This document shows positions 37,845 through 63,176 of a stretch of DNA of 64,000 nt, in pieces. Within the stretch, counting starts at the first letter, position 1. Each line of letters opens with the position of its first letter. Both the position numbers and the translations under genes were made by a program. Source of the DNA: a virus. The stretch is taken from the IMG/VR virus record IMGVR_UViG_3300028840_006010, one strand, 5' to 3'. A model generated the notes under the pieces. The model had not been told where the DNA came from. It worked only from the letters and a program-made list of their open reading frames with translations, and did not search any database.

Positions 37845-38155
37845 GATGGATTAAAGCATCAATAGGATTAGCAGCCTTCGGTTTTATTAATTTAGTCCTA
37901 TTCATAGCAATAAGCGCCCCGTTTTCATCAGTATTACACGCAATGTCCGATGAAGCAGGAAAATTGGATGAATATGAATACAACTATTCTTCAGGACAAG
38001 GAGAAAAAACAGGAAGGACCTTAAACAATAGTAATTTCCAACATTTTTACGGTATGATTCGTATGATATTTGGATTAACATTCGTATTCAGTATGTTTGG
38101 TTCGATTGTATGGTTCTTCTTAGGAACACATGAAGAGGAATATGAACAAGCTTAA
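37841..38155 (+). CDS. small membrane protein (paralogous motif VWFFLGT shared with 58602..59051)
   Basis: Two TM helices. Confidence 0.45.
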   Translation: MRWIKASIGLAAFGFINLVLFIAISAPFSSVLHAMSDEAGKLDEYEYNYSSGQGEKTGRTLNNSNFQHFYGMIRMIFGLTFVFSMFGSIVWFFLGTHEEEYEQA

Positions 38156-40049: not shown

Positions 40050-40051
40050 AA

Positions 40052-41785: not shown

Positions 41786-41790
41786 GCTAA

Positions 41791-43629
41791 ATGAATAAAG
41801 AAAGAATGCTATTGATATCATTAATAATAGGGCTTTCGCTCATATCGACATCTGTTGCCTATGACTCTTTAACGATAGTATCAACGAAAACAACGAAAGA
41901 TGTATTGTTTGTCGTTAGCAATCAAAATTACACAACTAACGCAACGATGCAGTTTTCAGAAATCGTTGTTGACACCAGCGATATCACTTTCAATGATACA
42001 ACATTTGAGGTCGTATCACCGAATAATATTGCGATAGCGTTAGACACGTTGAAGCAGGCACCCGCTTGGTGGAATACATCATTTTCAAAAAGCAAGACAT
42101 ACGTTATCAATCCAAATATGATTGACGAAACATTATCAAACTTTCCTGTTTTGGTAAAAATCGACAGCACGACAGGTGCGTTGTGTGATGATGGGAATAG
42201 CATTCGATTTATATCACCTGACAACCAAACGGAATATCCGTATGAAATAGATACATGGAATAATTCAGGCACCTCATTTGTTTGGGTTAAAATACCTACA
42301 GTAAGTAATACCACAAATACTCGGTTCTTAATGTATTACAATAACAGCAACGCCGTTGATGGTGAAACGCCAACGGAAGTATGGGATGATAATTATGTGT
42401 ATGTAAACCATTTTGGTTATGACTACAATGACAGTACAGGAAACGCTCCTACCACAACAAATACCGGAGTAACATTTATTTATGATGATGTTTGTGGTAT
42501 GAGTGGAAGTTTTTATCCTACTGACCGTTTACGAATACCAAGCTATGACAAATTAAATGTTTCTGAGATTAATTTAAATGTTATTGGTAATGTTAGAGAT
42601 AGGGATACTGCTACATATGGTTGTTTTATTAGTAAATCTTATGCTTCTCAATATGAATTTAGATGGCTTAGTTGGGATGGTTATTTTGAAGGTAAAATTG
42701 GTGGTACTCAATATAATGATATTACTCTTACTCATAATTTCATTACAGAAGGTTCTTACGCCAATTATTTAATTACATATGAAAACGGCGAGAATATGAA
42801 ATTTTATCGTGATACTGTCTATAAAGACGATATTACGATAAACGGTGGATATTTTAATACATCTACATCACCTATGTATGTTGGTTATAGAAGCGCCGAT
42901 GTTTCTTTTGATGGTAATTTTACTGAATTACGTATTTCAAATATTACAAGGAGTGATGCTTGGAATGATGCTGTATACTCCAGTGTTATGGATTACGATA
43001 ACTTTACCATCGAAACCGAGAACCATGATTATGCTGACAGCACACCAAGACCATTAGCGTTTTATGCTGAAACATCCGCAGGAAATGTTAGTTTCAATAT
43101 ATCGGGATTTATGGCGGACACACGTTATGATGTTATTCGTGGCGGTAGTACAATCGCTTCTCGTTTAACGGATGCAAATGGTGTAATCCGATTTACAAAT
43201 GATGTGTGGAGCGAACAACACTTTTACATCAACTCAAACAACATCATTGATGTAGCCGTTGTGCCAAGTGTTTGGCAAGCTGGCAACATTGAGTTAGGGG
43301 AAAACGCACAAAACAACTTTACATTTTATCAAAACGGCACAGCATCACTTGACATTAGTATCGGGTATAACACCACGAACTACTCATTTGTTTCTTACAG
43401 TGCATGGAAAACAGGTGGAAACAATCAGGTTTGTGCAAACTATACGGCTGACGTGTGGCTTGCCGAATCAAACATTGCTCCTGGCTATCCTCCTTCAACA
43501 GGTTTGAAAGTGGACTTTGAGTCAGGGAATTTTGTATTTGGAAATAGATTATGGGCACCGAGAACAACGTTGGGTTTAGCTCAACTTGAAAACTTTGATA
43601 TTGTCCTAACGGTGCAGGAACATACATGA
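41791..43629 (+). CDS. secreted DUF2341 + LamG (concanavalin-A-like lectin) domain surface protein
   Basis: Signal peptide. FPVLVKIDS...IRFISPDNQTEYPYEIDTWN...FVWVKIP...LMYYNN (DUF2341 pattern). TELRISNITRSDAWNDAVY (LamG-like). Confidence 0.6.
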   Translation: MNKERMLLISLIIGLSLISTSVAYDSLTIVSTKTTKDVLFVVSNQNYTTNATMQFSEIVVDTSDITFNDTTFEVVSPNNIAIALDTLKQAPAWWNTSFSKSKTYVINPNMIDETLSNFPVLVKIDSTTGALCDDGNSIRFISPDNQTEYPYEIDTWNNSGTSFVWVKIPTVSNTTNTRFLMYYNNSNAVDGETPTEVWDDNYVYVNHFGYDYNDSTGNAPTTTNTGVTFIYDDVCGMSGSFYPTDRLRIPSYDKLNVSEINLNVIGNVRDRDTATYGCFISKSYASQYEFRWLSWDGYFEGKIGGTQYNDITLTHNFITEGSYANYLITYENGENMKFYRDTVYKDDITINGGYFNTSTSPMYVGYRSADVSFDGNFTELRISNITRSDAWNDAVYSSVMDYDNFTIETENHDYADSTPRPLAFYAETSAGNVSFNISGFMADTRYDVIRGGSTIASRLTDANGVIRFTNDVWSEQHFYINSNNIIDVAVVPSVWQAGNIELGENAQNNFTFYQNGTASLDISIGYNTTNYSFVSYSAWKTGGNNQVCANYTADVWLAESNIAPGYPPSTGLKVDFESGNFVFGNRLWAPRTTLGLAQLENFDIVLTVQEHT

Positions 43630-44423
43630 TAAAGAAAGCAGTAATCATCATAATACTGGTTGCCAGTTTGTTAATGCCTACAGTTACAGTCAGTGCTAAA
43701 ATATATAACATTAAAATTGAGCCTGAATATGATGGATATTGTTGGTATACAATCAAAAATGATATAGATGTTATGGATAAATCGGCTCATAGGAGCTCTT
43801 TATCATGGGCTAGTTTTTATGAATGGAATTTGTCTAATATTCCATTAAATGCTACTATTCTTAATATAACATTCCATTGGACTATTGTTGATAACAGAGC
43901 CCACAATGCAAAAGTTCGTATTCAAGAAATTACAACAAAACCTTCAGAATATAAAGAAACAAATGTTGAAAATAAAAGTTTGTATTTAAATATTATAAAT
44001 GGAGAAACATTATATTCAAGATATGCTTTTTCCAGTTTAGATTTTGATTATCATTTGAATAAAATTCAAGATAATATTTCTAGAGGATGGTATTCTTTTG
44101 GTCATATAGTAAGGAGATATGGTACGTTTGGAGATAAATATTTTCATGTTGCATCAACTCGTTCCGACAATCCACCTTACATGTGGATAACATATCATGT
44201 TCCTTCAGTTTTTGCACAATTACATCCCACACCATCAAATAATAGTGTTGTAGGAAACCCATCAGTCTCAACAGGTATAACAGTATCCCATATCAATCCT
44301 ATAAATCTTACCTTCAAATTATACAACACATCATCTGGAACATGGAATACATTTATGATTACAATAACAATGGATTGGTTGAAGTATTTGACCTTTCTAT
44401 ATTATGGAATAATAGAACAATAG
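43626..44423 (+). CDS. secreted hypothetical protein
   Basis: Signal peptide; 265 aa; ATGA overlap. Confidence 0.55.
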   Translation: MIKKAVIIIILVASLLMPTVTVSAKIYNIKIEPEYDGYCWYTIKNDIDVMDKSAHRSSLSWASFYEWNLSNIPLNATILNITFHWTIVDNRAHNAKVRIQEITTKPSEYKETNVENKSLYLNIINGETLYSRYAFSSLDFDYHLNKIQDNISRGWYSFGHIVRRYGTFGDKYFHVASTRSDNPPYMWITYHVPSVFAQLHPTPSNNSVVGNPSVSTGITVSHINPINLTFKLYNTSSGTWNTFMITITMDWLKYLTFLYYGIIEQ

Positions 44424-44460
44424 AATAAGGATAAAAAAAAATAAAAAAGGTGCGAGAGAG

Positions 44461-47400
44461 ATGAATAAAATAAAAACAATCTTGATAGTAATGCTTTTTA
44501 TAGCAACTATTGTACCATTAACGGTATCATCTGACGACCCATATATTCCACAAGCAGATGTATATGTGTGTGGTACTATGGGAGCAGGCTGGTATGATGC
44601 AACGCATGTTGCAACGATAGCTGAAGGAATAACGAATGTATCATCAGGTGGAACCATTTACGTGTGGAATGGCACATATGATGAACAACTGACTATATCA
44701 AAACAACTAACCTTACAAGGAAATTCATCGGCTGCTACAATCATAAGATATAATTCAGGAAATATTGTAACAGTAGTAAGCGCAGACGGATGTGCTTTCA
44801 AAGATTTGAATTTTACATGGACAGGCGGTTGGAGCAACTGTATTGATATGCAATATTGTAATAATACATTGATTGACAATGTGCATTTTAAAGATGGCTA
44901 CAGCGCTGTTGATATTGTTGATAGTAGAAATTTTACATTTTCAAATTGTGTTGTTAGAAGTATGTATGCTTATGGTGTACATCTGACTACTGTAACATGG
45001 GCAAACATTACTCAATCCAATTTTGTTGATAATGATAATGATATTTATATATGGAGAGGATATCATATAAACACTTCACATTGTAGGTTTTATAATCATC
45101 CAGGTGAGGATATAGCTGTACGTATGTCAACGACAACAGGATATAATTCTTATTATACAATATATGATTGTGATATTGAAGCTAATACAGGTTGGCCTGG
45201 AATATATATTGGAGGTCGATATAGCAGAATAATTCAAAATCGGATTAGTAATTGCTCTAGTGCTATTCATTTGTCAGATTCTAGTGCTTACTATACAGAA
45301 GTAAAAAATAATGTTATACGGGATTGTTCTCTTGAAGGTATTAATGTAAATTATGGTCAATCATCTACAACTCCAGGTATCATTGCACATAACTCTATTA
45401 AAAATTGTACCTATGCATTAGAACTTGACGATACATCATATTGGACTATTTATAATAATTATTTCAATAATTCAATCGAGTTTTCTGGTACCGTTCACCA
45501 CATTACGTGGAACATATCTAAAACGACTGCCCCCAACATTGTAGGAGGACCATATCAAGGTGGTAACTTTTGGAGTGCATATTCAGGTGTAAATCGAGGC
45601 GATGGTTTTGGTTCAACCAACTATACAATACGCCAATGGAGCGATATTGATTACCTGCCATTAGTTGATGATTATTATCAAGTATATGTTGATGATGACA
45701 AACCTGCTCAATGGTATGATGTGTATCATGTCGCTACAATACCAGAAGCAATCACCAACATCACTAACGGAACGATTTATGTGTGGGAAGGTACATATGA
45801 TGAAGAAGTTACTATCAATAAAGAAGTAACGTTGATTGGAAACGGCACTAATTCAATAATCACAAATCTAACTATAGTTTCTAATGATAATGTAACGATA
45901 ATGAATCTCAATTTCACACGGAGCGGTTCAGGGGATGCAATACGTTTATCTTCAAAAAATAATATCACCGTTAAAAATTGTGAGTTTTATAATCTTGATT
46001 CTGCTATACTTATGTATTCTGATTTAGAAGGCTTTAACTTTACAGGATGTAATTGTACAAAATGTGGATTGAATGATGGATGTTTAGAATTTAATTGGGG
46101 CTCAGGAACATCACAAAACAACGTTATATATGATAACGAATTTTATAATATAGGTACTGAAGAAACAATATACATGGGAGATACCGTAGGTGATTTTGTT
46201 GTGGCAAATAATGTATTTAAAAACACCGATGATATAACCTTACGTTCAAGCGAATCAGCGAATCATATTTACAATAACTCTTTTATTGGAAGTAGCACTA
46301 CTATAGGAGTAGGCGATAATGATGTTATTTCTTATAATACTATTAATGATGCCAGCTCTGCCTTTTCTTGTTATGCTTCCAATGTTGATATTCATCACAA
46401 CAATATTACTACAGTAGAAAATTACGCTTTTTATTTGGGTACAAGCGCAAGTGATGTACAAATATATTCTAATAACATAACTGGAGTAGATACAGTTGCT
46501 TATTCACAATCAGGAATAGTGGATGCTACATTTTATAATAATTATATATCTTATGATTCATCTAAATCAAGTGGAAGTGGATATGACAAAATTATATGGA
46601 ACACCACAAAAACAACAGGACCTAACATAATAGGAGGACTATCTATCGGAGGCAATTATTGGGTGCAATATACAACAGCCGTTGATACAACAGGTAATGG
46701 TTTTGCAAGCCAATATCAAATTAATACAGGTGTTTATGATTATCTCCCACTATCAAACAATCTGACAAGTATATTTGTTTCATCAAATCAACCAGCGGGT
46801 TGGTATAATGAACATAGAGTACATACAATTTCAGAAGCAATCACTAACGCTTCAGATGGTTGGACAGTTTATGTTTGGAATGGTTCATATAATGAGCAAG
46901 TAACAATCAGTAAACGGTTAGACATCATAGGTAATACATCAGCAAATGTAACCATTACTGCACCTTCCTCACCAGTCATTAAAGTATCATCTGACCACGT
47001 AAACATATCAAATGTAAATGTTACAGGTTCTGGTTTCATAGGATTGGATATTATAAACTCAATTGATTATGTCAGAATTACCGATTCAAGATTCTATGGA
47101 CTAAAATATGGAATAACCAACCAATCATACCATAATTTAGATTTTATTAACATATCCAATTGTAATTTTACTCATATTTCTGGCACAGCAATTCAGTTTT
47201 ATCCTGACTCATATTCCGATAATGTTACAATAGATAACAATGAATTTTATGGTAATGACGGTGATATGGATTATGGAATAGTCATTCATAGAGGAGATGA
47301 TTGTACTATATCGAACAATCAATTCAAACAATTATATTACAATAGTTTATTATTGAATGATAATGCTTGTCAAAGAAATACAGTTGAAAATAACACATTT

Positions 47401-50400
47401 ACTAACACAAACGGAGGAATTTGGACTTATTCAACTGGTCATATAAAATACAATACATTTACTGACATACCTACAAATGATTACCCGATATCTATTCTGG
47501 CTCATGATGGTATGGTTTACGTACATCATAATGACATATCAAGCTGTTGGCGAGGTATTGAACTCTATAACAATGGTGAGAATGCAACGATTTATGCCAA
47601 CAATATTAGTACAACGAATTATTCAATATTTGGAGGAACAGGTGTTAGTAATGTATTCGTTTATAACAACCGATTATATCAAGATGTAGGAGGCACATCA
47701 TTTGGCGAATGGAATACAACAGAATCAATCGCCACTAACATAATTGGAGGACCAACAATCGGTGGTAACTGGTGGGCTCAATATACAGATGCTACAGATA
47801 CAACAGGAAATGGAATTGCCGATACGCATTATGAGGTATTTTCAGGTGTTTATGATGAACTGCCAATAACGAATAATATATCACTTCAAACTTTCTATGT
47901 ATCAAATTCAATGGGAGAAAATTGGTATGATTCAAATCACACTCATACAATAAACGATGCATTAACGAACCTTTCTGATAATGGTGGAACGATTTATGTA
48001 TGGGATGGCACGTATACAGAAACACTTGCTATCAACAAACCAAATGTCAATATTATTGGAAACGGAACTGACGTTACAACATTACAACATTCTACAGGAA
48101 ATTTAATACATATATACCAAAGCAACATAAATATTTCTCATATGTATCTTAAAACAACATCATCAAAAAATATGCATGGAATAGTAAAAGACACAGGCAC
48201 GGTAAATAATTTAACATTTTATGATTTACACCTTTACGATTTCGCTTATGGAATCCATATATACAACACTGTAGACAATGTTACCATTAAGAATTGCAAC
48301 ATCACTGATTGTGCCACTGTTGGTGGATTAATGGCTGTTGAAATAAAAGAAGGTTGTAGTAATGTAACAATCACTAACAACGAATTTTACAACAATACAC
48401 AACGGTGTATGTTTATTTATAATTCCAATGATATTGCCATAACGCATAATATTATAAAAACAACTTACTATGATGCTATACTCACTCAATATGGTAAACG
48501 GTTTGAAATAAGTAATAACACCATTACTGATTCACTTTATTCAGCTATTTATTTCAAATCATCTGGACATGTAAAATACAATAATATTATTAATTGCAAT
48601 CATGGGATTGTAATAGAAGCAGATGAAGTCTCGATGGTAAATCAATACTACCATCATAATATTATTGATAATGCTGTCGGTGGAGCATTCGCAATAGGAA
48701 CACCCAAAGGCGTACAACCAATAGTATATAGTAATGAAATAAGAAACGTATCATATTGTATATATTGTTATCAATCATTATCAAATGGAACATTTTATAA
48801 CAACAATTTTACAGGTATTGTAAATTCAAATAGCAAATCATTAACAGGATGTTCTTTCAACATAACACAACGAACTGGTCCTAACATCATCGGCGGGCAA
48901 GATATAGGTGGAAATTATTGGTCAGGATATACTGGTTATACAACCGGAGATGGAATTGGTACAACATCATATCAAACATATGTTGGTGGTCCATACGATT
49001 ATTTACCTTTGACAAATAAACAAAACATCATTTATGTATCTGGTTCAATGGGAGCAGGATGGTATAATGGAGCTCATGTGGCAACAATAGCCGAAGCAAT
49101 AACTAATATGACGCTTAATAACAGCGGAACGGTGTATGTATGGGAAGGAACATACAGTGAAGACCTAACTGTAGATAAAGGAATTACGTTTATTGGAAAC
49201 GGCACAGATAGAACAAATGTATCTGGTGCTTGGACGATTTCACATGATAATGTAACCATCCAAGCTATGAATTTATCAAAAAACAGTGGGACTATTATAT
49301 CAACAGGTACTTCTAAAGACATTAATATAAATAACGTAAAATTGAGTACTGCTACATATGGTATATCTAGTACAACAGGAAAAAGAATCAATGTTACAAA
49401 TTGTACTTCATCATACAGTTTTGGATGGTATGCAATACATTTTGTTGGTACGACACATTGTAATGTTAAAGATAACACATTTACTGGTGGAGCACTTCCG
49501 ATACATGGGAAATATGCTGACTATCTTAATGTATCTAATAACTTCGTAAAAGGCACCAATATCATAGAATATTCTAATTATACTACGCTTTACAATAATT
49601 CTTTCTATAAAGGTCAAGGTGCATATATTTATTCAACACTTGAGATTACCGGATGTACGGAAACTACCATACAAAATAACAATATCTATAAATCCACCGG
49701 TCAATCAGCTATTGAAATACAAAGCGGTACTAATAATAATATAATACATAATACAATCAATAACACAGCTTATTATGGTCTATTTGTTAGTAGCACAGAA
49801 AATAATATAACAATCAAAAATAATATATTTGCTAATAACAGCGAAGTAGGTAGCAATTATCATGATATAACATTATTCGATAGTTGCAATGACGTACTCA
49901 TATATAACAATAGATTTATGACTACCAACAATCCTGATTTTAACAGAGCTGATGTTATTAGTGTAAACAATGTAACTCTTAACACAACACAACAAACTGG
50001 ACCTAATATCATTGGCGGTCAGGACATTGGCGGTAACAAGTGGAGTTTATACACTGGCGTTGATATAACAGGAGACGGTATTGGCAGTACATCATATACC
50101 ATTGATGGAGTAACTGATTATTTACCATTAACAAATACAAGACAATATACGACAGTGTATGTATCAGGTTCAATGGGAGCCGGATGGTATAATACAACAC
50201 AAGTTCACACGTTAGCAGAAGCTGTAACAAACATTTCAAATGTTGGTGGAACAGTATATGTTTGGAATGGAACATATACAGGTGGCGCTACAGTAACAAA
50301 AGCTATAACATTTATTGGAAATAGTACTGCTAAAACAAATATTACAACAAACGAAATAGATATTGAGTCCGATAACGTATCAATAAGCAACTTCAATTTT

Positions 50401-53400
50401 ATTGGTAGCGGTTCTGGAAATGCTTTAAAAACCAGTGGAGCTACTTGGAGAAGGAATATTACAATACAGAATTGTAAATTCTATAATTTTGAACAGGGAT
50501 TTTTTGCATATTCTGATGTTCAAAATTTTAACATAACTGGTTGTAACTTCACTTCTTGCGGTTTGAATGATGAAGCTTCTATCCAATTTAATTTTGGAGC
50601 ACCTGAATCAACAGGTTTGGTAATCCATCATAATGAATTCTATAATGGAGGAGACGCTATCTACATGACAGAAGATTGTACTATAATCAATAATGTGTTT
50701 AATACTCCAGGATATCACGCTATACACGCAACTTCTTCTTGTGATGTGATGAATGCTTATAATAATACTTTCAGGAATGTTGATTATGCAATATTTGGTT
50801 ATGGTGCCGGTCACATTAAATATAATACTGTAGAGAATTGTAATACTTTTATGGGCGTATATAGAGACAACATCAACATACATCATAATAACATCTCATG
50901 GTGTAGTGCATCTGGTTTTTATTTCGGAAGCGCTTCAGCCACGAATAATAACATTTATTCAAACAATATAACTTGCAGAAATTTCACATTTGCTCAAAAT
51001 TGTATTGGAGGAAATGTTATCTATAACAACTACATCAACGTTACCAATTATGTTGCATGGGGTACTGATAGAGCATATCTTGAATGGAATACAACCCAAC
51101 GAGAAGGAACAAATATCATCGGAGGACCAAACATAGGAGGTAATTATTATGTACAATATACCTCTGCCGTTGACACTACGGGTGATGGATTCGCTAGCGC
51201 TTACGATATTCCGCCTTATGATGATGCAACGGATTATCTGCCTTTGACCAACAATTTATCGTTAACAACTTGTTATGTATCCAATACACAACCAGCTGGT
51301 TGGTATGATGTAAATCATCTCAGTACTATAAGTGAAGCGTTAACAAATATCAGTGACACGGGAGGCACCATTTATGTTTGGGACGGTTGGTATACAGAAA
51401 ACATCAACATCACTAAGAACCTTACTGTTATCGGTAATGCGACAGCAACAGTGCACCTTGGAGCTTCCAATCAAGCGGATTATGTAATCAAGGTATATGC
51501 GGATAACGTTACTGTAAATAATTTTGAAGTGTTAAACAGCACACACGGAGTAAAAATAGCACCCGATAGCTTCTTATGTAACATAGAAAACACAACGTTT
51601 ACTGACATCACTATTACAGCAGTTGAAGTCCGTGGAAATTGCGCTGAAATAAAATATGCAACAGCTGGAGCATTATATGGCGTTGATAATTACGCCAACT
51701 TCTTATCTGTTCAGAACTCAACATTTACAAGCACTCATACAGGTGTAAAAACACAAGGAATCAATACAACAATACGTGATTGTAATATCACTCAACAAGA
51801 GGTTGCTGGTTGTTATGGGTTGAATGCCGAGAACTTTTCAGTTAGACATACCGAATTTTATGATATCAGAAACGGAACTTCGTATGCAGGAGCAGTTATT
51901 TATCATAATGTTGATGGTGTAAGAATACACAGCAATTACATGAACCTAACAGAATATGCATTATACGAACCAAATCCAACACCAGGCGGTTTAGTATGTT
52001 TCTATAATAACAAAGTATACAATTCCGATGCAGGTGTTGATGTTGGTAATTTACAACAAACAGCATCCATTGGTGATTGTATCATGTATACTAACAACAT
52101 GACAATCGACATAAATGAAACTGCATATCCCGTTGTATATGGTTCTACTTTACAATCATATACAAGTTGCCCAATTCGTATGCAAGATGTTACTGTTATA
52201 AGTATTTCAGATAACGTTATTATTGAAGGAACATATGGGATGTGGCTTGAAGTATCAACTTCTGTCGGGAATCATATTTATGATAACACGATAAGAAATT
52301 GTACAACGCAAGGTATTCATGTTGTAGGTGGAAGAGTTGATGTATACAACAACACGTTTGACAATATAACCAATGATGGTATTTACAGCCGATTTAATAA
52401 TAACTCAGCGATTATTTACAATGTTATCAATAATTCTATTGCCGGAATAACAGTATCACATTCTACAAGTCCAAGAATATATGAAAATAACATTACAAAT
52501 GCTTCTACAAGTGCAATATCTTGTGCAAACTCAGATGGTAACATTATCCATCATAATCGTATTGACAATATGATTTGGTTATATCAAAACGATAATTCAC
52601 AGGCTCATAATAACACAATAGCTGGTTCTGGCAGTGATATTGGAATATCACTGCAAGGTGTCTCGATTGGTATAGACATTGAAGCGAATTATATCGACAA
52701 TTTCGAAGATGGTATAAAGATTTTTGATTCAAACAGACATGTTAACATATCAAACAACTATATTGAAAATTCGTCACGATATGGAATAAATGTTTCTGGT
52801 GTTTACATAAACTCATTATGTTATAACAATTATTTCGCCAATAACGGTAATCATGTATATGACACATCATCTGACGTTAATGACCGATACAATACTACCC
52901 AACAAACAGGACCTAACATAATCAGCGGACAGGACATTGGTGGTAATTATTATGATAATTACACAGGTGTTGATACAAACGGAGATGGAATTGGTGAAAC
53001 TGTTTTCGTATTAGGTAATGGTTACATTGATTATCTACCATTAACGAATAATCAAGAATTAACAAATATTACTAATCCATTCCCTGCTAATTCATCGACA
53101 AGCGTTGCAAGACCTCCAGTTAATATCAGCGTTACAGTTAATGGAAGTGTTGAATTTTACCTCTATTTCTATAACACAACAGGTATTAGCCCACAATGGA
53201 CATTGATGGACAATTGGACTGTTTCTGGTAAAGAACGATGTGAAATGGTAAGTCTTGATAGTTGGGGGTGGGGAACGCAATTTGTATGGGGCAACACAAC
53301 CTATACTTGGAAAGCATGTGCGTATAACAATACTTGGTTAAACAACACTTATACATTTACAACATTAGCGGATGCAGGAGGAGCCAATGCTCGTAATGAT

Positions 53401-53556
53401 GTCAACGATGATAATGTGGTTAATGTTTTTGATATGAGCGCTGATTGGGGACACCGAACGATTGCAGGATACAAAACGTATAACAGATATTATGATGTAA
53501 ACAATGATGATGTAGTAAACACGATTGATTTATCGACAATCTGGAATAGTACATAG
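44461..53556 (+). CDS. giant (3031 aa) secreted adhesin-like protein: signal peptide, seven tandem ~375-aa right-handed parallel beta-helix (NosD/CASH/PbH1-type) modules, C-terminal shared module and type-I dockerin
   Basis: Each module starts YVxxxxxxGWYDxxHVxTIxEAITN...GT(I/V)YVWxGTY and ends TTGPNIIGGxxIGGNYWxxYTGxDxxGDGIGxTxY...DYLPLTNN. C-terminus has DVNDDNVVNVFD...DVNNDDVVNTID dockerin loops. Extremely dense N-x-S/T sequons. Confidence 0.9.
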   Translation: MNKIKTILIVMLFIATIVPLTVSSDDPYIPQADVYVCGTMGAGWYDATHVATIAEGITNVSSGGTIYVWNGTYDEQLTISKQLTLQGNSSAATIIRYNSGNIVTVVSADGCAFKDLNFTWTGGWSNCIDMQYCNNTLIDNVHFKDGYSAVDIVDSRNFTFSNCVVRSMYAYGVHLTTVTWANITQSNFVDNDNDIYIWRGYHINTSHCRFYNHPGEDIAVRMSTTTGYNSYYTIYDCDIEANTGWPGIYIGGRYSRIIQNRISNCSSAIHLSDSSAYYTEVKNNVIRDCSLEGINVNYGQSSTTPGIIAHNSIKNCTYALELDDTSYWTIYNNYFNNSIEFSGTVHHITWNISKTTAPNIVGGPYQGGNFWSAYSGVNRGDGFGSTNYTIRQWSDIDYLPLVDDYYQVYVDDDKPAQWYDVYHVATIPEAITNITNGTIYVWEGTYDEEVTINKEVTLIGNGTNSIITNLTIVSNDNVTIMNLNFTRSGSGDAIRLSSKNNITVKNCEFYNLDSAILMYSDLEGFNFTGCNCTKCGLNDGCLEFNWGSGTSQNNVIYDNEFYNIGTEETIYMGDTVGDFVVANNVFKNTDDITLRSSESANHIYNNSFIGSSTTIGVGDNDVISYNTINDASSAFSCYASNVDIHHNNITTVENYAFYLGTSASDVQIYSNNITGVDTVAYSQSGIVDATFYNNYISYDSSKSSGSGYDKIIWNTTKTTGPNIIGGLSIGGNYWVQYTTAVDTTGNGFASQYQINTGVYDYLPLSNNLTSIFVSSNQPAGWYNEHRVHTISEAITNASDGWTVYVWNGSYNEQVTISKRLDIIGNTSANVTITAPSSPVIKVSSDHVNISNVNVTGSGFIGLDIINSIDYVRITDSRFYGLKYGITNQSYHNLDFINISNCNFTHISGTAIQFYPDSYSDNVTIDNNEFYGNDGDMDYGIVIHRGDDCTISNNQFKQLYYNSLLLNDNACQRNTVENNTFTNTNGGIWTYSTGHIKYNTFTDIPTNDYPISILAHDGMVYVHHNDISSCWRGIELYNNGENATIYANNISTTNYSIFGGTGVSNVFVYNNRLYQDVGGTSFGEWNTTESIATNIIGGPTIGGNWWAQYTDATDTTGNGIADTHYEVFSGVYDELPITNNISLQTFYVSNSMGENWYDSNHTHTINDALTNLSDNGGTIYVWDGTYTETLAINKPNVNIIGNGTDVTTLQHSTGNLIHIYQSNINISHMYLKTTSSKNMHGIVKDTGTVNNLTFYDLHLYDFAYGIHIYNTVDNVTIKNCNITDCATVGGLMAVEIKEGCSNVTITNNEFYNNTQRCMFIYNSNDIAITHNIIKTTYYDAILTQYGKRFEISNNTITDSLYSAIYFKSSGHVKYNNIINCNHGIVIEADEVSMVNQYYHHNIIDNAVGGAFAIGTPKGVQPIVYSNEIRNVSYCIYCYQSLSNGTFYNNNFTGIVNSNSKSLTGCSFNITQRTGPNIIGGQDIGGNYWSGYTGYTTGDGIGTTSYQTYVGGPYDYLPLTNKQNIIYVSGSMGAGWYNGAHVATIAEAITNMTLNNSGTVYVWEGTYSEDLTVDKGITFIGNGTDRTNVSGAWTISHDNVTIQAMNLSKNSGTIISTGTSKDININNVKLSTATYGISSTTGKRINVTNCTSSYSFGWYAIHFVGTTHCNVKDNTFTGGALPIHGKYADYLNVSNNFVKGTNIIEYSNYTTLYNNSFYKGQGAYIYSTLEITGCTETTIQNNNIYKSTGQSAIEIQSGTNNNIIHNTINNTAYYGLFVSSTENNITIKNNIFANNSEVGSNYHDITLFDSCNDVLIYNNRFMTTNNPDFNRADVISVNNVTLNTTQQTGPNIIGGQDIGGNKWSLYTGVDITGDGIGSTSYTIDGVTDYLPLTNTRQYTTVYVSGSMGAGWYNTTQVHTLAEAVTNISNVGGTVYVWNGTYTGGATVTKAITFIGNSTAKTNITTNEIDIESDNVSISNFNFIGSGSGNALKTSGATWRRNITIQNCKFYNFEQGFFAYSDVQNFNITGCNFTSCGLNDEASIQFNFGAPESTGLVIHHNEFYNGGDAIYMTEDCTIINNVFNTPGYHAIHATSSCDVMNAYNNTFRNVDYAIFGYGAGHIKYNTVENCNTFMGVYRDNINIHHNNISWCSASGFYFGSASATNNNIYSNNITCRNFTFAQNCIGGNVIYNNYINVTNYVAWGTDRAYLEWNTTQREGTNIIGGPNIGGNYYVQYTSAVDTTGDGFASAYDIPPYDDATDYLPLTNNLSLTTCYVSNTQPAGWYDVNHLSTISEALTNISDTGGTIYVWDGWYTENINITKNLTVIGNATATVHLGASNQADYVIKVYADNVTVNNFEVLNSTHGVKIAPDSFLCNIENTTFTDITITAVEVRGNCAEIKYATAGALYGVDNYANFLSVQNSTFTSTHTGVKTQGINTTIRDCNITQQEVAGCYGLNAENFSVRHTEFYDIRNGTSYAGAVIYHNVDGVRIHSNYMNLTEYALYEPNPTPGGLVCFYNNKVYNSDAGVDVGNLQQTASIGDCIMYTNNMTIDINETAYPVVYGSTLQSYTSCPIRMQDVTVISISDNVIIEGTYGMWLEVSTSVGNHIYDNTIRNCTTQGIHVVGGRVDVYNNTFDNITNDGIYSRFNNNSAIIYNVINNSIAGITVSHSTSPRIYENNITNASTSAISCANSDGNIIHHNRIDNMIWLYQNDNSQAHNNTIAGSGSDIGISLQGVSIGIDIEANYIDNFEDGIKIFDSNRHVNISNNYIENSSRYGINVSGVYINSLCYNNYFANNGNHVYDTSSDVNDRYNTTQQTGPNIISGQDIGGNYYDNYTGVDTNGDGIGETVFVLGNGYIDYLPLTNNQELTNITNPFPANSSTSVARPPVNISVTVNGSVEFYLYFYNTTGISPQWTLMDNWTVSGKERCEMVSLDSWGWGTQFVWGNTTYTWKACAYNNTWLNNTYTFTTLADAGGANARNDVNDDNVVNVFDMSADWGHRTIAGYKTYNRYYDVNNDDVVNTIDLSTIWNST
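44563..52890 (+). repeat. intragenic tandem array of 7 beta-helix modules (~1.09-1.14 kb each; starts near 44563, 45681, 46768, 47890, 49033, 50158, 51272)
   Basis: Protein-level periodicity read from the translation. DNA at module 5/6 starts is 34/36 identical (TATGTATCNGGTTCAATGGGAGCNGGATGGTATAAT). Confidence 0.8.
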
Positions 53557-53599: not shown

Positions 53600-55333
53600 A
53601 TAAGGAAAGTAATACTAATCCTCATTTTCTTTCTTTTTTTCGTAGCATTCGTTGTTACTGTAAATGCGGATAATCCAAACTATATCTACAATAATAACTT
53701 TATTGACAATACAAGAGATGCTATTGATAACAGCTCAAACACCTATTGGAACTCATCGTATCCTACTGGCGGAAATTATTGGTCAAATTATACAAATCAA
53801 CATAATCCACCACAAGATATATATTCAGGAACCTATCCACAATCCGTACCGGGTGCGGATGGTATATGGGATATTTATTACGCGATTTGGGGAACAGCTG
53901 GTAGTCATGATTATTATCCGCTTTCAGACCAATATCCTCCTATGAACGTTGTATACGTTGACGATAACCGACCATGGGATTGGTATAACGTGACAGGGCA
54001 TTATCGTAACATTACTTATGGAATGTTCTATGTAGCAAACAACGGCACCGTTTATGTTTTTGATGGCACTTACAATGAACATGTAATAGGAAATAAATCA
54101 GTAAAAATTATTGGAAACGGCTCTGAGACAACCACAATACATGGAATATATCATACACACGTTGTTAATTTAACTGCTGATTATGTAAACATTACTGGTT
54201 TTACGATTGAGAATGGAGGCGGACATGAATATGATGCTGGCGTGTATATTAAGACAAATCATTCATATGTTTATAACAACACAATAGTAGATTGTAATGT
54301 AGGAATCTATGTTCAATATGATTATAACTTTATTGGTAGAAATAATATATCAGGCAATCCTCGTAATATCTATATCATAAATTGTAATCGAAGTAACATC
54401 ACCAGAAATACAATAGAACATAGCTCAATATATGCTCTTTACGCTGAAAACTGCCATCATAATATCATTGATTACAATAATTGTTCTAATGGTACTCGAG
54501 GTATGAGATTAATCACCAGTACAGATAATAACCTTAGTTATAATGAAATAAATGATATTGAATTTGATGCTATAGAAATAACATCTGATGATAATGTTGT
54601 GTATAGATGTGATTTAATCAACGCCACTCGAGCTGTATACATACATGATTGTTCTAACAATGAACTTTTTTATTCTAATGTTTCTTTAAGTCAAAAAGGA
54701 GTTCATATTGACTCTGCTTATGACATGTTTGTTAAAAGAATGAAGGCATATGAGTGTTATGAATACGGTATCATCATAGAAAATTCATCTAATATTAATT
54801 TATATTATAACAGTTTAATACGAAACGCAATAAACGGATTTGATGATTCAAACAATAATAGTTGGTATTCATCTGATTTAGAACGAGGTAATTATTGGTC
54901 GAATTATCATAACGCTTCTCAAGGAGCGTATGATAATAATTCTGATGGTATTGCTGATGACCCATATATTGTTCCATCAGGTGGTTCGCTTGACTTGTAT
55001 CCATTGATGTGGCCTGTCGGAACAGGATTCCTTAGTATTGATGGAAAATCAAATGGATGCCAGATTTATGATTACACACCAACGTTTAACTGGACAAAAA
55101 TATATAATACAGGTCATTATCAATTACAAATTGCGACAGATTCAGGTTTTACAAATCTCGTTGTTAATTTAACAAACATAACATGGGCTTCTGAATGGTA
55201 TTTTGCAAGTTATTATGAACAAAACGAAACGCGAGCATCATTTACACTTCCTCCCCAATATGCTTTACCTGATTATGGTCTTTATTATTGTCGTGTCCGA
55301 GGATTAACCCATGGAGGGAGACCGTCACCTTGA
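53600..55333 (+). CDS. beta-helix module surface protein (same module family). The frame is open upstream of the ORF-track ATG (53942) and encodes a signal-peptide-like stretch, but there is no canonical start; in-frame ATA 53600 follows SD AAGGTGGTGAG.
   Basis: Upstream in-frame translation ...ILILIFFLFFVAFVVTVNADNPNYIYNNNFIDN...GGNYWSNYT...DYYPLS continues into MNVVYVDD... Stop TAA at 53597-53599 bounds the frame. Confidence 0.55.
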   Translation: MRKVILILIFFLFFVAFVVTVNADNPNYIYNNNFIDNTRDAIDNSSNTYWNSSYPTGGNYWSNYTNQHNPPQDIYSGTYPQSVPGADGIWDIYYAIWGTAGSHDYYPLSDQYPPMNVVYVDDNRPWDWYNVTGHYRNITYGMFYVANNGTVYVFDGTYNEHVIGNKSVKIIGNGSETTTIHGIYHTHVVNLTADYVNITGFTIENGGGHEYDAGVYIKTNHSYVYNNTIVDCNVGIYVQYDYNFIGRNNISGNPRNIYIINCNRSNITRNTIEHSSIYALYAENCHHNIIDYNNCSNGTRGMRLITSTDNNLSYNEINDIEFDAIEITSDDNVVYRCDLINATRAVYIHDCSNNELFYSNVSLSQKGVHIDSAYDMFVKRMKAYECYEYGIIIENSSNINLYYNSLIRNAINGFDDSNNNSWYSSDLERGNYWSNYHNASQGAYDNNSDGIADDPYIVPSGGSLDLYPLMWPVGTGFLSIDGKSNGCQIYDYTPTFNWTKIYNTGHYQLQIATDSGFTNLVVNLTNITWASEWYFASYYEQNETRASFTLPPQYALPDYGLYYCRVRGLTHGGRPSP

Positions 55334-58300
55334 ATAAGATAACCGCAATAAGTATTGTACTACTTATCATATTTACAACAGTCTATCCGGTACAATCTAC
55401 AAGAGGTCCACATTATATACCTTCTCAATCCGCCGATATCTATGTTGATTGGAACGCTTCATATAGAGGAGTTGGATGGTATGATGCAACGCATGTAGCT
55501 ACTATTTCACAAGCTATATCAAACGCTAACGATGGAGATACAATTTTTATCTATAATGGAACTTATAATGAAGAGGTCACTATCAATAAAAGAGTAAGTA
55601 TTATAGGTCAAAAAAATTCTACTTCACCAACTGATTATATTAATGATACTGTAATAATTAGTAAAAATCCAACTGATGCTTGTTTTAATATAGAAAGTCA
55701 TTGGGTTAACATTTCGAATATAGCATTTTCTTGTCAAAATGCATTAAAACCATGTGTTTTAGTAGAATCCCATAATCATATCAACATTAGTGATTGTTTA
55801 TTTACACATGCAATACAAGGAACAACTGGATGTGGTGTAAAACTCGATGCAGTAGGTTATGTTGATATTTATAATAACGTTTTTTATGGCTCCGGATGTG
55901 GTATTTGGTTTGAATCTATGGGTTTTTCTCATCATTGTACAATACGCAATAACTCAATTACAACATATCATCATGCAGATGATAATGCTTGTGGTATCAA
56001 AATAAATCGTGATAATAGTTATAATACAATAGATAATAATATAATTTATAACAACTCATTCGCCGGTGTACATATCTTTGGAACTTGGAATACAATAACG
56101 AATAATACTATATCAGGGAACGGGAGAAGTGGTATTACTGATTCATGTGGCGTACTTTTAGAATCAGAAAGTCATAATAATACTATTGGTACAACTCACA
56201 TTCAAGAATCATATAGTAACATTTTTAATTATAATAACCGAGCCGTTGTAATAGAAAAGGATTCAAAAGATAATAATGTTTCAATGAATCTTTTTAATAA
56301 TAGTAATATTTCTGTATCAGTTGTCGAAACAGTTGGTGTTATGTCAGGTGGAGGAGAACCTAATCATGTTTTTAGAAACGATTTCATGAATGCTAATGTA
56401 AGGCATCTTCAAGTTGAAGCTTTAGCTTCCTCAACTGTATATTGGAATCTGACCTATCCTGGTTTTCCACTCACCCATGCTATTGGTAATTATTTTGATG
56501 ATTATTCCGGTGAAGATGAGTATCACGGTGCAAATCAAGATATAACTGGTTCTGATGGTGTAGGTGACACACCGTATCCGGCGCAAGTAATGTCAACACA
56601 AGCCTACTATCCTACAATACAATCACAAGGGAATATGTCATGGGGAATCATTGTATTACCGACACAAAATATTGAGGCAATAACTGCTACATTATGGGGT
56701 TGGTATGGTTGGGGAACAACTGATACAGCATCAAGTGCCGGTTTTTATTATGGTAAATGTAACTGTTCTCAAAGCAACCATGATTTCAATACAACAGGAG
56801 GAACAAACTTAGAAAATGAATCATATTCGAAATCGGTTACCGTTGAAGGTTCATCTTGTTATTGTGTAAAAGCATGGGCAAAAAACGATACAGGTTTTCA
56901 TGTATCAACCAACACAGATTATTTTCTAACAAAACCATCTGCTTCTCCTTCAAATTTAACTATTACTCATCGAAATGCAACTAACGTTACTTTGACATGG
57001 GATAATTTATCAATTACACCTCCATCATGTGCTACATCATTTGTTCAATATACTATTATTAGGTATAGCCCTACATCTCATCCTGCAAATCCTACTGATG
57101 GACAATCAGGTTACATAGGTACAGCTGAAACATGTAAGATAACAGGACTAACAAAAGACAGTCAATATTTCTTTTCCGCGTGGACATACATTCGAGCAAA
57201 TTGTTCCGGTACAATGTATTCACAAAATAGCACAGAATTTGCAACTACAACAACATGGACGCAAGGTGGTGCGTATAACATTAGTGTACGATATGAAAAC
57301 ACAACATATGGTTATGTACCTTTAAATCGATGGGGACCGCATGTTTTTACGATTTATTATTATGGAGAGGAACCTTGGGGTGAGGCATATGGACAGGTTG
57401 ATTACGTTACGATTGTAACTAACGATACAGGCGTCACAAATATTACATATGATAAAGGCATCATTGGTGATTTTTCGGATATATCACATGGAAATTTGAC
57501 GATAACAACAAATCGAACTATTAAATTCATACAATTATATTGGAATGACACGGATATAGGTTTTCCAAATCGTTGTTTTCGGACAATTATTCCTGAAACA
57601 GGAGAACGAAACGTCACATTCTTCATTCGAACTAATTTGCAGGTATATGGAGAAGGTACAAACAATTTCAACGGTAGTATAGTGATGTATAATTATGTGT
57701 TCATCGATGAAACAGGACAATTTCGTCCACCAAACCAACCATATGCTTCAATATATACATTTGATGAAGAAGGAAATCGTTTGGTTATACATGAAGAATT
57801 TTTTGATACAACAGGTGCGGTTTATCCTTGGTTGATATTTGACAAACAATATTTCATTGGTGTATATTGTGATTTACTTGAATATGATAGGTTAGGATTA
57901 GCGCCATCACAAACTGACCAAAGTCCTGAAATTGATATTCCTTGGGAATGGAATCAAACATACGCATTTTATGATTTAATTATGCTTACACCCAAATGGT
58001 ATAGTAATGGTTTCTATGTGTATTATCGTGATACTACATACAGTACTTCTGCTGTCACATTTACAGTATATGATTCAATAAATGGTACACAATTATATAC
58101 AACAACATTCACAGGTGGTAGTGTAAAGAATTTTACCTACCCATGTAATACAACACAAAATTATGCATACAAAATAACGGCAACACTTGATAGTGTTGAT
58201 AATGTGTATGATGGTACCTATTCTACCAAACAGGTTATTGTTGCATATGCTACCGAGGCAATATACGACCAATCATCAATTGATGATATTATTGAAAATA

Positions 58301-62976: not shown

Positions 62977-63062
62977 ATTTTCATCACCATCCTGTTTATT
63001 TGAAAAATAGTATATTAAGTTAATTTAAGTATTTTTCGAAAACTTGAATTCCCATCTCTTTT

Positions 63063-63176
63063 CCGGGCACTTTATTACTCTGTAATAAAGTGAAAAAGTG
63101 AAGAGTTTAAATCTTTTTTCCGGGCACTTTATTACTCTGTAATAAAGTGAAAAAGTGAAGAGTTTAAATCTCTTTT
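63063..63176. repeat. two tandem 57-bp repeats, each containing an 11-bp perfect inverted repeat CACTTTATTAC-TCT-GTAATAAAGTG (63068-63092 and 63125-63149); operator-like
   Basis: Read directly. Located in the divergent intergenic region between 62976(-) and 63505(+). Confidence 0.8.

What the first reader, a model, noticed from the sequence alone, without database searches (positions are those of the whole stretch)
44461..53556. 3031-aa giant adhesin built from seven tandem ~1.1-kb beta-helix modules with ongoing homogenisation
Each module has a conserved cap (YVxxxxxxGWYDxxHVATIxEAITN...GTxYVWxGTYxE), parallel beta-helix turns and a closing TTGPNIIGGxDIGGNYWxxYTG...GDGIGxTxY...DYLPLTN motif. 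Modules 5 and 6 share near-identical DNA at their starts (34/36 nt), indicating recent duplication or gene conversion. Such arrays are hot spots for recombinational length variation, a likely mechanism for host-range or surface-antigen variation. The protein ends in a dockerin.
Basis: seen in the sequence. Interest (0 to 1): 0.75.

Follow-up and report, generated by a model that had tools for sequence, protein, structure and literature searches.

The report
Seven-module secreted beta-helix surface protein
This is a real 3031-residue secreted protein made of seven old, well-diverged beta-helix domains plus a dockerin-like tail, carried by a large uncharacterised mobile element or virus. It is a new member of a very common protein kind, and it varies by swapping module bodies between related elements, not by internal repeat homogenisation.

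Summary
The ORF (44461-53556, +, 3031 aa), its seven modules, the cap and closing motifs and the 34/36-nt match are all present. Pfam NosD (1e-111) and Beta_helix (1e-73) match, and an AlphaFold model of module 6 (pLDDT 81) is a right-handed beta-helix.

The evolutionary reading is not supported. Modules are 31-47% identical in protein and 48-56% in DNA. Codon identity at conserved residues equals the codon-usage expectation. The longest exact internal repeat is 18 nt. A related element keeps exactly seven modules, while flanking genes have dS 0.9-1.85.

Between the two elements, dS ranges from 0.016 (module 7) to 0.93 (module 1 body) and 1.15 (dockerin). Change points sit at or near the cap and closing motifs. 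This indicates exchange of module bodies between elements.

The tail has two canonical Ca-loop patterns. It scores below Pfam's threshold, but a paralogue passes it.

The gene sits in a cluster of secreted, sequon-rich proteins on a PolB/Ku/ligase element. No cohesin, capsid or tail gene was recognised.

The module family has about 50,000 representative clusters, many in 2000-4800-aa multi-module proteins. Viral NosD-like plus dockerin proteins were described in 2026.

The parts
44449..44452 (+). Shine-Dalgarno-like GGTG, 9-12 nt upstream of the ATG
   Evidence: Upstream sequences. Most + strand genes in the window have GGTG/GAGG/AGGAGG at this distance.
44461..53556 (+). Giant ORF, 3031 aa
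   Evidence: Pfam NosD 1.2e-111 and Beta_helix 1.1e-73. Orthologue P0001 is 91% identical.
44461..44532 (+). Predicted Sec signal peptide (MNKIKTILIVMLFIATIVPLTVSS)
   Evidence: Basic n-region, then a 15-residue hydrophobic core (Kyte-Doolittle 2.75), then a small-residue c-region. Read from the sequence; no SignalP was available.
44560..45669 (+). Module 1 (aa 34-403). Its body, 44641-45507, is the most divergent block versus the related element (33% nt divergence, dS 0.93).
45682..46758 (+). Module 2 (aa 408-766)
46771..47874 (+). Module 3 (aa 771-1138)
47893..49017 (+). Module 4 (aa 1145-1519)
49030..50136 (+). Module 5 (aa 1524-1892). Its body, 49282-49959, is the second divergent block (21% nt divergence, dS 0.61).
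50155..51252 (+). Module 6 (aa 1899-2264), the module modelled: right-handed beta-helix, pLDDT 81, pTM 0.83
51271..53049 (+). Module 7 (aa 2271-2863). It is longer (593 aa, extra beta-helix coils) and nearly identical to the related element (dS 0.016).
53050..53385 (+). Strand-rich, sequon-rich domain of unknown fold (aa 2864-2975). It is shared with ORF 35751-36422.
   Evidence: Alignment (51% identity to the paralogue). The AF2 model failed (pLDDT 37).
53386..53553 (+). Dockerin-like tail (aa 2976-3031) with two loops, DVNDDNVVNVFD and DVNNDDVVNTID
   Evidence: Pfam Dockerin_1 19.3 bits, below GA 22.9. The paralogue scores 25.1 bits. Alignment. dS 1.15 versus the related element.
35751..36422 (+). 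Small secreted paralogue: signal peptide, the same unknown domain, and a dockerin
38130..44423 (+). Upstream secreted, sequon-rich proteins: Peptidase_C25-like, a 577-aa unknown, a DUF2341 protein and a 265-aa unknown
53600..55333 (+). Single-module NosD-type protein. The frame is open from 53600 and encodes a signal peptide upstream of the first ATG (53942). The probable start is ATA at 53600.
55288..58605 (+). NosD module, fn3 and a C-terminal multi-span hydrophobic anchor

Best explanation
What is shown:
- The ORF encodes a Sec-type signal peptide and seven complete NosD/CASH-type right-handed beta-helix domains. Each domain has a pectin-lyase-fold N-cap and a 'WNxT..GxNIIGG..GGNYW..GDGIG..DYLPL' closing motif.
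- Linkers between domains are 4-6 residues. A ~110-aa strand-rich domain and a two-loop dockerin-like tail follow.
- The duplications are ancient (synonymous sites between modules are saturated), and the number of modules is stable between related elements.
- Between two related elements the gene is a mosaic. Module 7 is almost identical. Modules 2-4 and 6 are close. The bodies of modules 1 and 5 and the dockerin are as diverged as the flanking genes. Change points lie at or near the conserved cap and closing motifs.

What is inferred:
- The protein is exported and N-glycosylated: 127 N-x-S/T sequons, 1.7 times the compositional expectation.
- It forms a fibre of stacked or beaded beta-helices, roughly 40-50 nm long. 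This length is my estimate from the fold, not a computed result.
- The C-terminal dockerin holds it on a cohesin-bearing partner at the host cell surface. The variable module 1 would then be distal.
- It binds, and possibly processes, glycans on other cells or surfaces.
- Specificity changes by homologous exchange of whole beta-helix bodies between co-occurring elements, with the conserved motif-coding DNA as crossover sites.

The carrier is a large PolB/Ku/ligase/resolvase element. A relative is on a 232-kb contig. The host is probably archaeal, and the element is not classifiable as virus or plasmid from this window.
For: Architecture and fold:
- ORF, modules and motifs.
- AF2 model of module 6: pLDDT 81, pTM 0.83.
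- Foldseek hits to GH87, PL6 lyases, Sf6/HK620 tailspikes and AlgE epimerases.
- The PDB profile search hits pectinesterase on the cap, and 2kzw on the closing motif at 8.8e-9.

Age and stability of the array:
- Codon-identity test.
- Longest exact repeat 18 nt.
- Seven modules and only 1-aa indels in P0001.
- The module 1 and 5 bodies of L001 are closest to the same-numbered window modules: 57% and 79%, versus at most 37% to any other module.

Mosaic:
- dS 0.016 to 1.15 within one ORF, with dN/dS 0.09-0.36 throughout. Flanking genes have dS 0.9-1.85.
- Change points at 44641, 45508, 49282, 49959, 51166 and 53248.
- Both variants are present in JGI sample 3300018080.

Secretion and surface location:
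- Hydrophobic N-termini on every cluster protein.
- Sequon z-scores of +7.1 (giant), +6.4 and +5.6 (its NosD neighbours), against -1.5 for PolB.
- ORF 55288 has a C-terminal membrane anchor.

Dockerin.

Precedent: viral NosD-like proteins with a signal peptide next to a dockerin, for which an adhesion role was proposed (PMC13452462).
Against: - No cohesin was found in the window or in the 29 kb of the related locus, so the anchoring partner is hypothetical.
- The dockerin score of this protein is below Pfam's cut-off, and the AF2 model of the tail failed.
- Glycan binding is inferred from fold and family only. No ligand site was identified.
- Only two distinct alleles exist in the searched collections (L006 is identical to L001). 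The cassette-exchange picture therefore rests on one pairwise comparison.
- The host domain is unproven. PolB relatives are binned with Heimdallarchaeaceae, Thermoplasmatota, Woesearchaeota, Saccharibacteria, Ignavibacteria and Atribacterota MAGs.
- Beta-helix proteins are also classic virion tailspikes.
Confidence: 0.6

Rival explanations
1. The array is evolving in concert: recent duplication or gene conversion between modules keeps homogenising them. Unequal recombination between modules changes the copy number and so generates antigenic or host-range variants.
For: The 34/36-nt identity at the starts of modules 5 and 6 is real and is the best window among all module pairs. The layout is tandem, with about 1.1-kb periodicity.
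Against: - Whole-module DNA identity is 48-56%.
- Same-codon use at conserved residues equals the codon-usage expectation in all 21 module pairs, including M5-M6 (0.49 observed, 0.46 expected).
- No exact repeat exceeds 18 nt.
- TRF finds no long-period array. It reports periods up to 500 nt only, so it could not have reported a 1.1-kb period.
- The orthologue keeps seven modules in positional orthology.
Confidence: 0.04
2. It is a virion receptor-binding protein or tailspike-type depolymerase of a large archaeal or bacterial virus. Module swapping changes host range.
For: Foldseek matches include the Sf6, HK620 and Det7 tailspikes and Klebsiella phage capsule lyases. The carrier looks like a mobile element or virus: PolB, many small ORFs on one strand, no tRNA or rRNA, and inconsistent binning of relatives. 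NosD-like genes near structural genes are reported in some sediment viruses (PMC13452462).
Against: - The protein has an N-terminal Sec signal peptide, strong sequon enrichment and a dockerin-like tail rather than a virion-attachment domain.
- All its neighbours are secreted or membrane-anchored proteins.
- The ten ORFs scanned with PHROGs gave no capsid, portal, terminase or tail hit, and Pfam gave only one sub-threshold Phage_capsid_2 hit (18.6 bits, cut-off 25).
- There are no relatives in IMG/VR or GenBank phages.
Confidence: 0.15
3. It is a dockerin-tethered multi-enzyme, cellulosome-like, in which each beta-helix is a polysaccharide lyase, hydrolase or esterase that degrades extracellular polymer.
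For: The nearest structures are enzymes: GH87 alpha-1,3-glucanase, PL6 lyases, pectinesterase and RbmB. A dockerin plus a neighbouring Peptidase_C25-like protein recalls enzyme display systems.
Against: - The residues invariant across the nine aligned modules are W, Y, G, N, K, T and V only. No invariant Asp, Glu, His or Arg occurs in the helix body. The body is poorly aligned, so this is weak evidence.
- Sequence identity to any enzyme is 10-16%.
- The fold alone does not discriminate binding from catalysis.
Confidence: 0.15
4. The seven-module array is an assembly artefact (collapse or expansion of repeats).
For: The window's own allele of the gene was not found in any other assembly. Window-type contigs from other samples end inside the cluster.
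Against: - Modules share no exact word longer than 18 nt, so short-read assemblers have nothing to collapse.
- An independently assembled orthologue (ENA, 232-kb contig) has the same seven modules in the same order. A JGI contig confirms the last two thirds of module 7, the tail and the downstream genes base for base.
Confidence: 0.02

Closest known systems
Multi-domain 'NosD domain-containing / parallel beta-helix repeat' surface proteins (Pfam PF05048 + PF13229; CASH domain), e.g. WP_321431274.1 of an uncultured Methanolobus sp.
   Same: The module is the same: a cap of the '..TIQ.AI..A..G.TI.V..G.Y.E.V.I.K.L.L.G' type, a beta-helix body and a 'WN.T...G.NI.GG...GGNYW' closing motif ending in DYLPL. 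They are tandem multi-module giants of 2000-4800 aa. The module profile finds 49,883 representative clusters at E<=1e-3. Among the 148 top-ranked sequences examined, 18 carry 5-9 closing motifs.
   Different: Identity is only 24-33%. Those proteins usually interleave PKD, Ig or subtilase domains. Here seven modules follow each other directly, end in a dockerin-like tail, and are encoded on a mobile element rather than a chromosome.
Viral nosD-like proteins of sediment and alkane-oxidising enrichment viromes (Narayanan et al., ISME J 2026, PMC13452462)
   Same: A NosD-like beta-helix on a virus-like contig, with a signal peptide and a dockerin next to it, further dockerins on the same contig, and a proposed adhesion role.
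   Different: A seven-module 3031-aa form, and mosaic exchange between elements, did not appear in the passages I read (abstract, outline and the passages matching 'NosD', 'dockerin' and 'beta-helix'); I did not read the whole paper.
Canonical NosD of the NosDFY complex (nitrous oxide reductase maturation)
   Same: The Pfam family (PF05048) and the beta-helix fold.
   Different: No nosZ, nosF, nosY or nosL was found among the ORFs of 150 aa or more that were scanned. The module profile gave no PDB NosD chain at E<=1. The protein has seven domains and is secreted.
Type I dockerin (Pfam PF00404) of cellulosomal and non-cellulosomal proteins
   Same: Two 12-residue loops with D/N at positions 1, 3, 5, 9 and 12, about 32 residues apart, at the extreme C-terminus. 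The paralogue passes Pfam's cut-off.
   Different: This copy is below the cut-off. No cohesin is in sight. The domain-plus-dockerin unit has only six relatives in 5.8 billion proteins, most of them traceable to contigs of this element or its 232-kb relative.
Phage tailspike or depolymerase beta-helices (Sf6, HK620, Det7)
   Same: Right-handed parallel beta-helix fold.
   Different: Identity is 10-13%. The protein has a signal peptide and no recognisable virion-binding N-domain. It is monomeric-style tandem domains rather than a trimeric single helix (inferred).

Membership tests
Pfam NosD (PF05048) / Beta_helix (PF13229) superfamily, pectin-lyase fold | HMM score above the gathering threshold | tested here: met
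   NosD 371.6 bits (GA 23.6) in 12 stretches. Beta_helix 246.5 bits (GA 25.9) in 14 stretches.
Pfam NosD (PF05048) / Beta_helix (PF13229) superfamily, pectin-lyase fold | Right-handed parallel beta-helix three-dimensional structure | tested here: met
   AF2 model of module 6: pLDDT 81, pTM 0.83, regular short strands over residues 1-318. Foldseek gives 50 PDB beta-helix matches at E<=1e-3.
Canonical NosD (N2O reductase accessory protein) | Genomic association with nosZ, nosF, nosY and nosL | tested here: not met
   Pfam scans of the ORFs of 150 aa or more in the window show none of these genes.
Canonical NosD (N2O reductase accessory protein) | Sequence closeness to structurally characterised NosD, including its copper-shuttling motif | tested here: inconclusive
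   No NosD chain was found among PDB hits of the module profile at E<=1. The His-Met-Met motif itself was not examined.
Type I dockerin (PF00404) | HMM score above the gathering threshold | tested here: not met
   19.3 bits (isolated tail) and 16.0 bits (168 aa), against GA 22.9. The homologous tail of ORF 35751-36422 scores 25.1 bits.
Type I dockerin (PF00404) | Duplicated Ca-binding loop with D/N at positions 1, 3, 5, 9 and 12 | tested here: met
   DVNDDNVVNVFD (aa 2980-2991) and DVNNDDVVNTID (aa 3012-3023), conserved in three other tails.
Type I dockerin (PF00404) | A cognate cohesin partner | tested here: not met
   No cohesin hit at E<=1 in the unannotated secreted proteins of the window or in the two extra genes of L001. 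The rest of the element and the host could not be searched.
Type I dockerin (PF00404) | Dockerin fold (two helices around two Ca sites) | tested here: inconclusive
   The AF2 model of the C-terminal 168 aa has pLDDT 36.7 and is unusable.
Concertedly evolving tandem-repeat surface protein (contingency or length-variable adhesin) | High DNA identity between repeats and low synonymous divergence | tested here: not met
   48-56% nt identity. Same-codon fraction 0.41-0.55 against 0.46-0.49 expected. Longest exact repeat 18 nt.
Concertedly evolving tandem-repeat surface protein (contingency or length-variable adhesin) | Repeat-number polymorphism among relatives | tested here: not met
   Seven modules in both available alleles. 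Only two alleles exist, and no long reads were available.
Phage tailspike / receptor-binding depolymerase | Location in a virion structural module and absence of an export signal | tested here: not met
   A signal peptide is present. No capsid, portal, terminase or tail family passed threshold in the window ORFs scanned.
Archaeal N-glycosylated surface protein | Sequon enrichment beyond composition in exported proteins | tested here: met
   127 sequons against 73.6 +/- 7.5 in shuffles (z = 7.1). Cytoplasmic PolB has z = -1.5. Glycosylation itself is not testable here.

The most novel reading that the evidence does not exclude
A family of large PolB-encoding elements carries a 'secretome island'. 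Its dockerin-tagged beta-helix fibres plug into host cohesins and re-wire the host's cell-cell or cell-surface contacts. The conserved cap and closing motifs of the modules act as built-in crossover sites, so that whole beta-helix bodies, the distal module 1 above all, are exchanged as cassettes between co-occurring elements to switch ligand specificity.
Probability: 0.2. Interest if true: 0.6.

Novelty: new member of a known kind. Interest (0 to 1): 0.33.

Why it matters
The protein itself is ordinary for its class. Tandem NosD-type beta-helix giants number in the thousands, and mobile-element NosD-plus-dockerin proteins have just been described.

The worthwhile points are these:
- It is a clean counter-example to the assumption that tandem modules imply ongoing concerted evolution. 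Here the repeats are ancient and the copy number is stable.
- Variation arises instead by block exchange between related elements, bounded at or near the conserved motifs. This is a testable route to specificity change.
- A dockerin type that appears confined to this element lineage implies a cohesin partner, still to be found, that could identify the host.
- The carrier, a poorly known PolB/Ku/ligase element with a relative on a 232-kb contig, deserves description in its own right.

Tried and rejected
- Exact look-ups of the window's giant protein, from both possible starts, found nothing on record.
- IMG/VR scans with the giant protein and with PolB found no relatives.
- GenBank phages: no hit for the C25-like protein, and only ~23% identity cyanophage gp43 hits for PolB.
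- The metagenome scan returned one contig, identical to L001, so there is no third allele.
- The genome scan with a PolB profile returned five MAG contigs from five unrelated taxa, so it gives no host call.
- phmmer of module 6, ORF 26668 and ORF 29081 against the PDB found nothing.
- NCBIfam on ten proteins found nothing.
- Rfam and tRNA scans of the window found nothing.
- A lenient Pfam scan for cohesin found none.
- The AF2 model of the C-terminal domain plus dockerin had pLDDT 37 and is unusable.
- A two-module alignment for structure prediction was abandoned. MAFFT aligned it out of register, and the tool returns no inter-domain geometry.
- TRF found no long-period array, although it reports periods up to 500 nt only.
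- Borg affiliation was considered because of the ~33% GC and the single-strand gene layout. It was not pursued: the Borg paper consulted does not mention NosD, beta-helix or dockerin.
- The sample's environment could not be verified. The literature gives only the PI of JGI 3300018080.

Full report
**1. The observation**

The window has one ORF at 44461-53556 (+) of 3031 aa with an ATG start. A GGTG lies 9-12 nt upstream, as for most genes of the window.

Searching the translation for the WY[DN] and D[YE]LP[LI] anchors gives seven of each, in alternation. This defines the modules:
- Modules 1-6: aa 34-403, 408-766, 771-1138, 1145-1519, 1524-1892 and 1899-2264. Each is 359-375 aa, about 1.1 kb.
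- Module 7: aa 2271-2863. It is 593 aa, about 1.8 kb, with extra beta-helix coils.

- Cap: 'YVS...GAGWYD..HV.TI.EAITN.S.GGTIYVW.GTY.E'.
- Closing motif: 'WNTT..TGPNIIGG..IGGNYW..YTG..DTTGDGIG.T.Y.....G..DYLPLTN'.

Pfam gives NosD 1.2e-111 (12 stretches) and Beta_helix 1.1e-73 (14 stretches). The 34/36-nt identity between the starts of modules 5 and 6 (49033 vs 50158) is real, and both differences are synonymous.

**2. Are the modules being homogenised?**

No.
- Pairwise module identity is 31-47% in protein and 48-56% in DNA. M5-M6 is 44% and 54%.
- I took every residue identical between two aligned modules (excluding Met and Trp) and asked how often the codon is also identical. Observed fractions are 0.41-0.55. 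The gene's own codon usage predicts 0.46-0.49. For M5-M6 the values are 0.49 observed and 0.46 expected. Synonymous sites between modules are therefore saturated, and the duplications are old.
- The 34/36 window is simply the maximum of a continuous distribution (next best 32, 32, 31, 31, 30...). All of these windows lie in the cap or closing motifs, where the peptide is identical.
- The longest exact word shared by any two places in the gene is 18 nt.
- TRF reports no long-period array, although it reports periods up to 500 nt only.

There is thus no long stretch of exact identity for unequal homologous recombination to use, and nothing that could mislead an assembler.

**3. A related allele**

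The protein search found P0001. It is 3021 aa, 91% identical, and lies on a 232,221-bp ENA contig (locus L001).
- A JGI contig (L006) is identical to L001 over 10.6 kb. Only two distinct alleles are therefore available.
- P0001 has seven modules, and its only internal indels are of single residues. The orthologue's called start lies ten codons later.
- The module 1 and module 5 bodies of L001 are closest to the window's modules 1 and 5: 57% and 79%, against at most 37% to any other module. Positional orthology is intact, and there is no inter-module conversion.

**4. Mosaic divergence**

Divergence between the two alleles is very uneven. Nei-Gojobori dS by segment:

| Segment | dS |
|---|---|
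| Module 7 | 0.016 |
| Modules 2-4 and 6 | 0.08-0.16 |
| Unknown C-terminal domain | 0.31 |
| Module 5 body | 0.61 |
| Module 1 body | 0.93 |
| Dockerin | 1.15 |
| Downstream genes | 0.9-1.85 |

dN/dS is 0.09-0.36 in every segment.

A likelihood segmentation puts the change points at 44641, 45508, 49282, 49959, 51166 and 53248.
- The first lies inside the cap of module 1.
- The second is at the first residue of module 1's closing motif.
- The fourth lies a few codons upstream of module 5's closing motif.
- The fifth lies within module 6's closing motif.
- The third lies inside module 5's body, and the last inside the C-terminal domain.

A 60-fold range of dS within one ORF under purifying selection cannot come from point mutation. 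It indicates repeated homologous exchange between diverged elements. The most conserved coding stretches appear to be favoured crossover sites; with one pairwise comparison, this last point is an inference.

Both variants occur in the same JGI sample, 3300018080 (L006, and L015 of the window type). In other samples, window-type contigs that are at least 99.98% identical end inside the cluster. This is what strain heterogeneity there would produce.

The cluster's gene content also differs. L001 has an extra 1036-aa gene. Where the window has a 265-aa ORF, L001 has an 807-aa NosD plus dockerin-like gene.

**5. Fold**

An AlphaFold2 model of module 6, made with the nine-sequence alignment, has pLDDT 81.2 and pTM 0.83. 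Residues 1-318 form the regular short strands of a beta-helix. The closing motif is poorly modelled.

Foldseek against the PDB returns only right-handed beta-helices, at 10-16% identity:
- GH87 glucanase and PL6 lyases;
- the Sf6, HK620 and Det7 tailspikes;
- AlgE epimerases and RbmB.

It also hits the small NMR structure 2kzw ('uncharacterized protein') over the closing motif, at E = 8.8e-9.

The refutation condition 'not beta-helical' is not met. The fold does not tell binding from catalysis. No Asp, Glu, His or Arg is invariant across the nine modules, but this is weak evidence because the bodies align poorly.

**6. The two ends**

N-terminus: MNKIKTILIVMLFIATIVPLTVSS is a textbook Sec signal.

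After module 7 comes a ~110-aa strand-rich domain. The tail follows, with the loops DVNDDNVVNVFD and DVNNDDVVNTID 32 residues apart. These match the D1-N3-D5-N9-D12 pattern of dockerin calcium loops (the pattern is established knowledge of the family).
- Pfam Dockerin_1 gives 19.3 bits for this tail, below the 22.9 cut-off.
- ORF 35751-36422 is a 223-aa secreted protein made of the same domain plus tail. It is 51% identical and scores 25.1 bits.
- The 807-aa L001 protein scores 18.7 bits.
- The domain-plus-tail unit has only six relatives in 5.8 billion proteins. Most are traceable to contigs of this element or its 232-kb relative.
- No cohesin was detected.
- The AF2 model of the tail was unusable.

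**7. Context**

The genes from 35.7 to 58.6 kb form a run that is mostly exported proteins:
- the small dockerin protein;
- a Peptidase_C25-like protein;
- a 577-aa unknown;
- a DUF2341 protein;
- a 265-aa unknown;
- the giant;
- a single-module NosD protein;
- a NosD plus fn3 protein with a C-terminal multi-span anchor.

N-x-S/T sequons exceed the compositional expectation in these proteins: z = +7.1 for the giant and +3.2 to +6.4 for four neighbours. PolB (-1.5), the Band 7 protein (-0.3) and ORF 26668 (-0.1) show no excess. This is what N-glycosylated archaeal surface proteins look like, but it is an inference.

The rest of the window encodes:
- a serine recombinase, a family B DNA polymerase and an AAA/RFC-like ATPase;
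- Ku, an ATP-dependent ligase and an SPFH protein;
- many small ORFs, almost all on the + strand.

It has no tRNA and no Rfam match. GC is about 33%.

PolB has more than 100 relatives at 41-80% identity on contigs up to 183 kb. The few that are binned sit in MAGs of Heimdallarchaeaceae, Thermoplasmatota (twice), Woesearchaeota, Saccharibacteria, Ignavibacteria and Atribacterota. Such inconsistent binning is typical of a mobile element. I could not recognise a capsid, portal, terminase or tail gene, so virus versus plasmid-like element stays open.

**8. How common is the kind?**

The module profile, searched against 1.84 billion representative proteins, finds 49,883 clusters at E<=1e-3 and 1,669 at E<=1e-30. 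The top hits are mostly 1000-4800-aa proteins with 4-17 matched stretches. Among the 148 top-ranked sequences examined, 18 carry five to nine closing motifs, and several end in a dockerin-like loop.

Named relatives are 'NosD domain-containing' or 'parallel beta-helix repeat' proteins, for example from an uncultured Methanolobus.

Narayanan et al. (ISME J 2026, PMC13452462) describe nosD-like genes in sediment viruses. One has a signal peptide beside a dockerin, on a contig with further dockerins. They propose three roles: virion attachment, lysis, or host adhesion.

**9. Verdict**

The feature is real and is correctly described as a seven-module beta-helix protein with a dockerin-like end. 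It is a new member of a known, very large kind.

The claims that made it look exciting are contradicted by the sequence: ongoing homogenisation and a recombinational length-variation hot spot. What the data do show is exchange of module bodies between related elements.

The most likely function is a dockerin-anchored, glycosylated, glycan-binding fibre on the host surface (confidence about 0.6 for the package). A virion receptor-binding protein and a tethered multi-enzyme are the main rivals.

Noticed in passing
window 53600-53945: The reading frame of the NosD gene listed from ATG 53942 is open back to 53600. There it encodes a signal peptide (IRKVILILIFFLFFVAFVVTVNA) and a closing-motif fragment, both conserved in L001. 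The only candidate start is ATA at 53600, just downstream of GGTGGTGA. The overlapping 93-aa ORF 53664-53945 has dN/dS of about 1.2 and is probably spurious.
   Followed up: partly
window 602-4964 and 9523-12233: The replication and repair set of the carrier element: a serine recombinase beside a family B DNA polymerase and an AAA/RFC-like ATPase, then a Ku homologue and an ATP-dependent DNA ligase (an NHEJ-type pair). Several PolB relatives carry LAGLIDADG inteins.
   Followed up: partly
window 5705-5831 and 63054-63177 (also 450-506): Near-perfect intergenic tandem repeats: 53 nt x 2.4 copies at 98% matches, 57 nt x 2.2 at 97%, and 25 nt x 2.3. Their function is unknown.
   Followed up: no
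L001 745-3855 and 7516-9939, versus window 40049-40052 and 43626-44423: The related element has an extra 1036-aa gene after the C25-like gene. It also has an 807-aa NosD plus dockerin-like gene where the window has a 265-aa ORF. The secreted-protein cluster therefore varies in gene content as well as sequence.
   Followed up: partly
L006 and L015 (JGI 3300018080); L012-L014: Both element variants occur in one metagenome. Window-type contigs from the other samples are at least 99.98% identical, and the two that reach the secreted-protein cluster end inside it (at 38889 and 41203). L012 lacks 72 bp at 33162-33233.
   Followed up: partly
window 26668-30196 (- strand): These are the only sizeable minus-strand genes (816 and 371 aa). 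They have no hit in Pfam, PHROGs, NCBIfam or PDB sequences.
   Followed up: partly
window 11163-11255: An imperfect 27-30-nt tandem repeat (about 3 copies) lies inside the coding region just upstream of the ligase gene.
   Followed up: no
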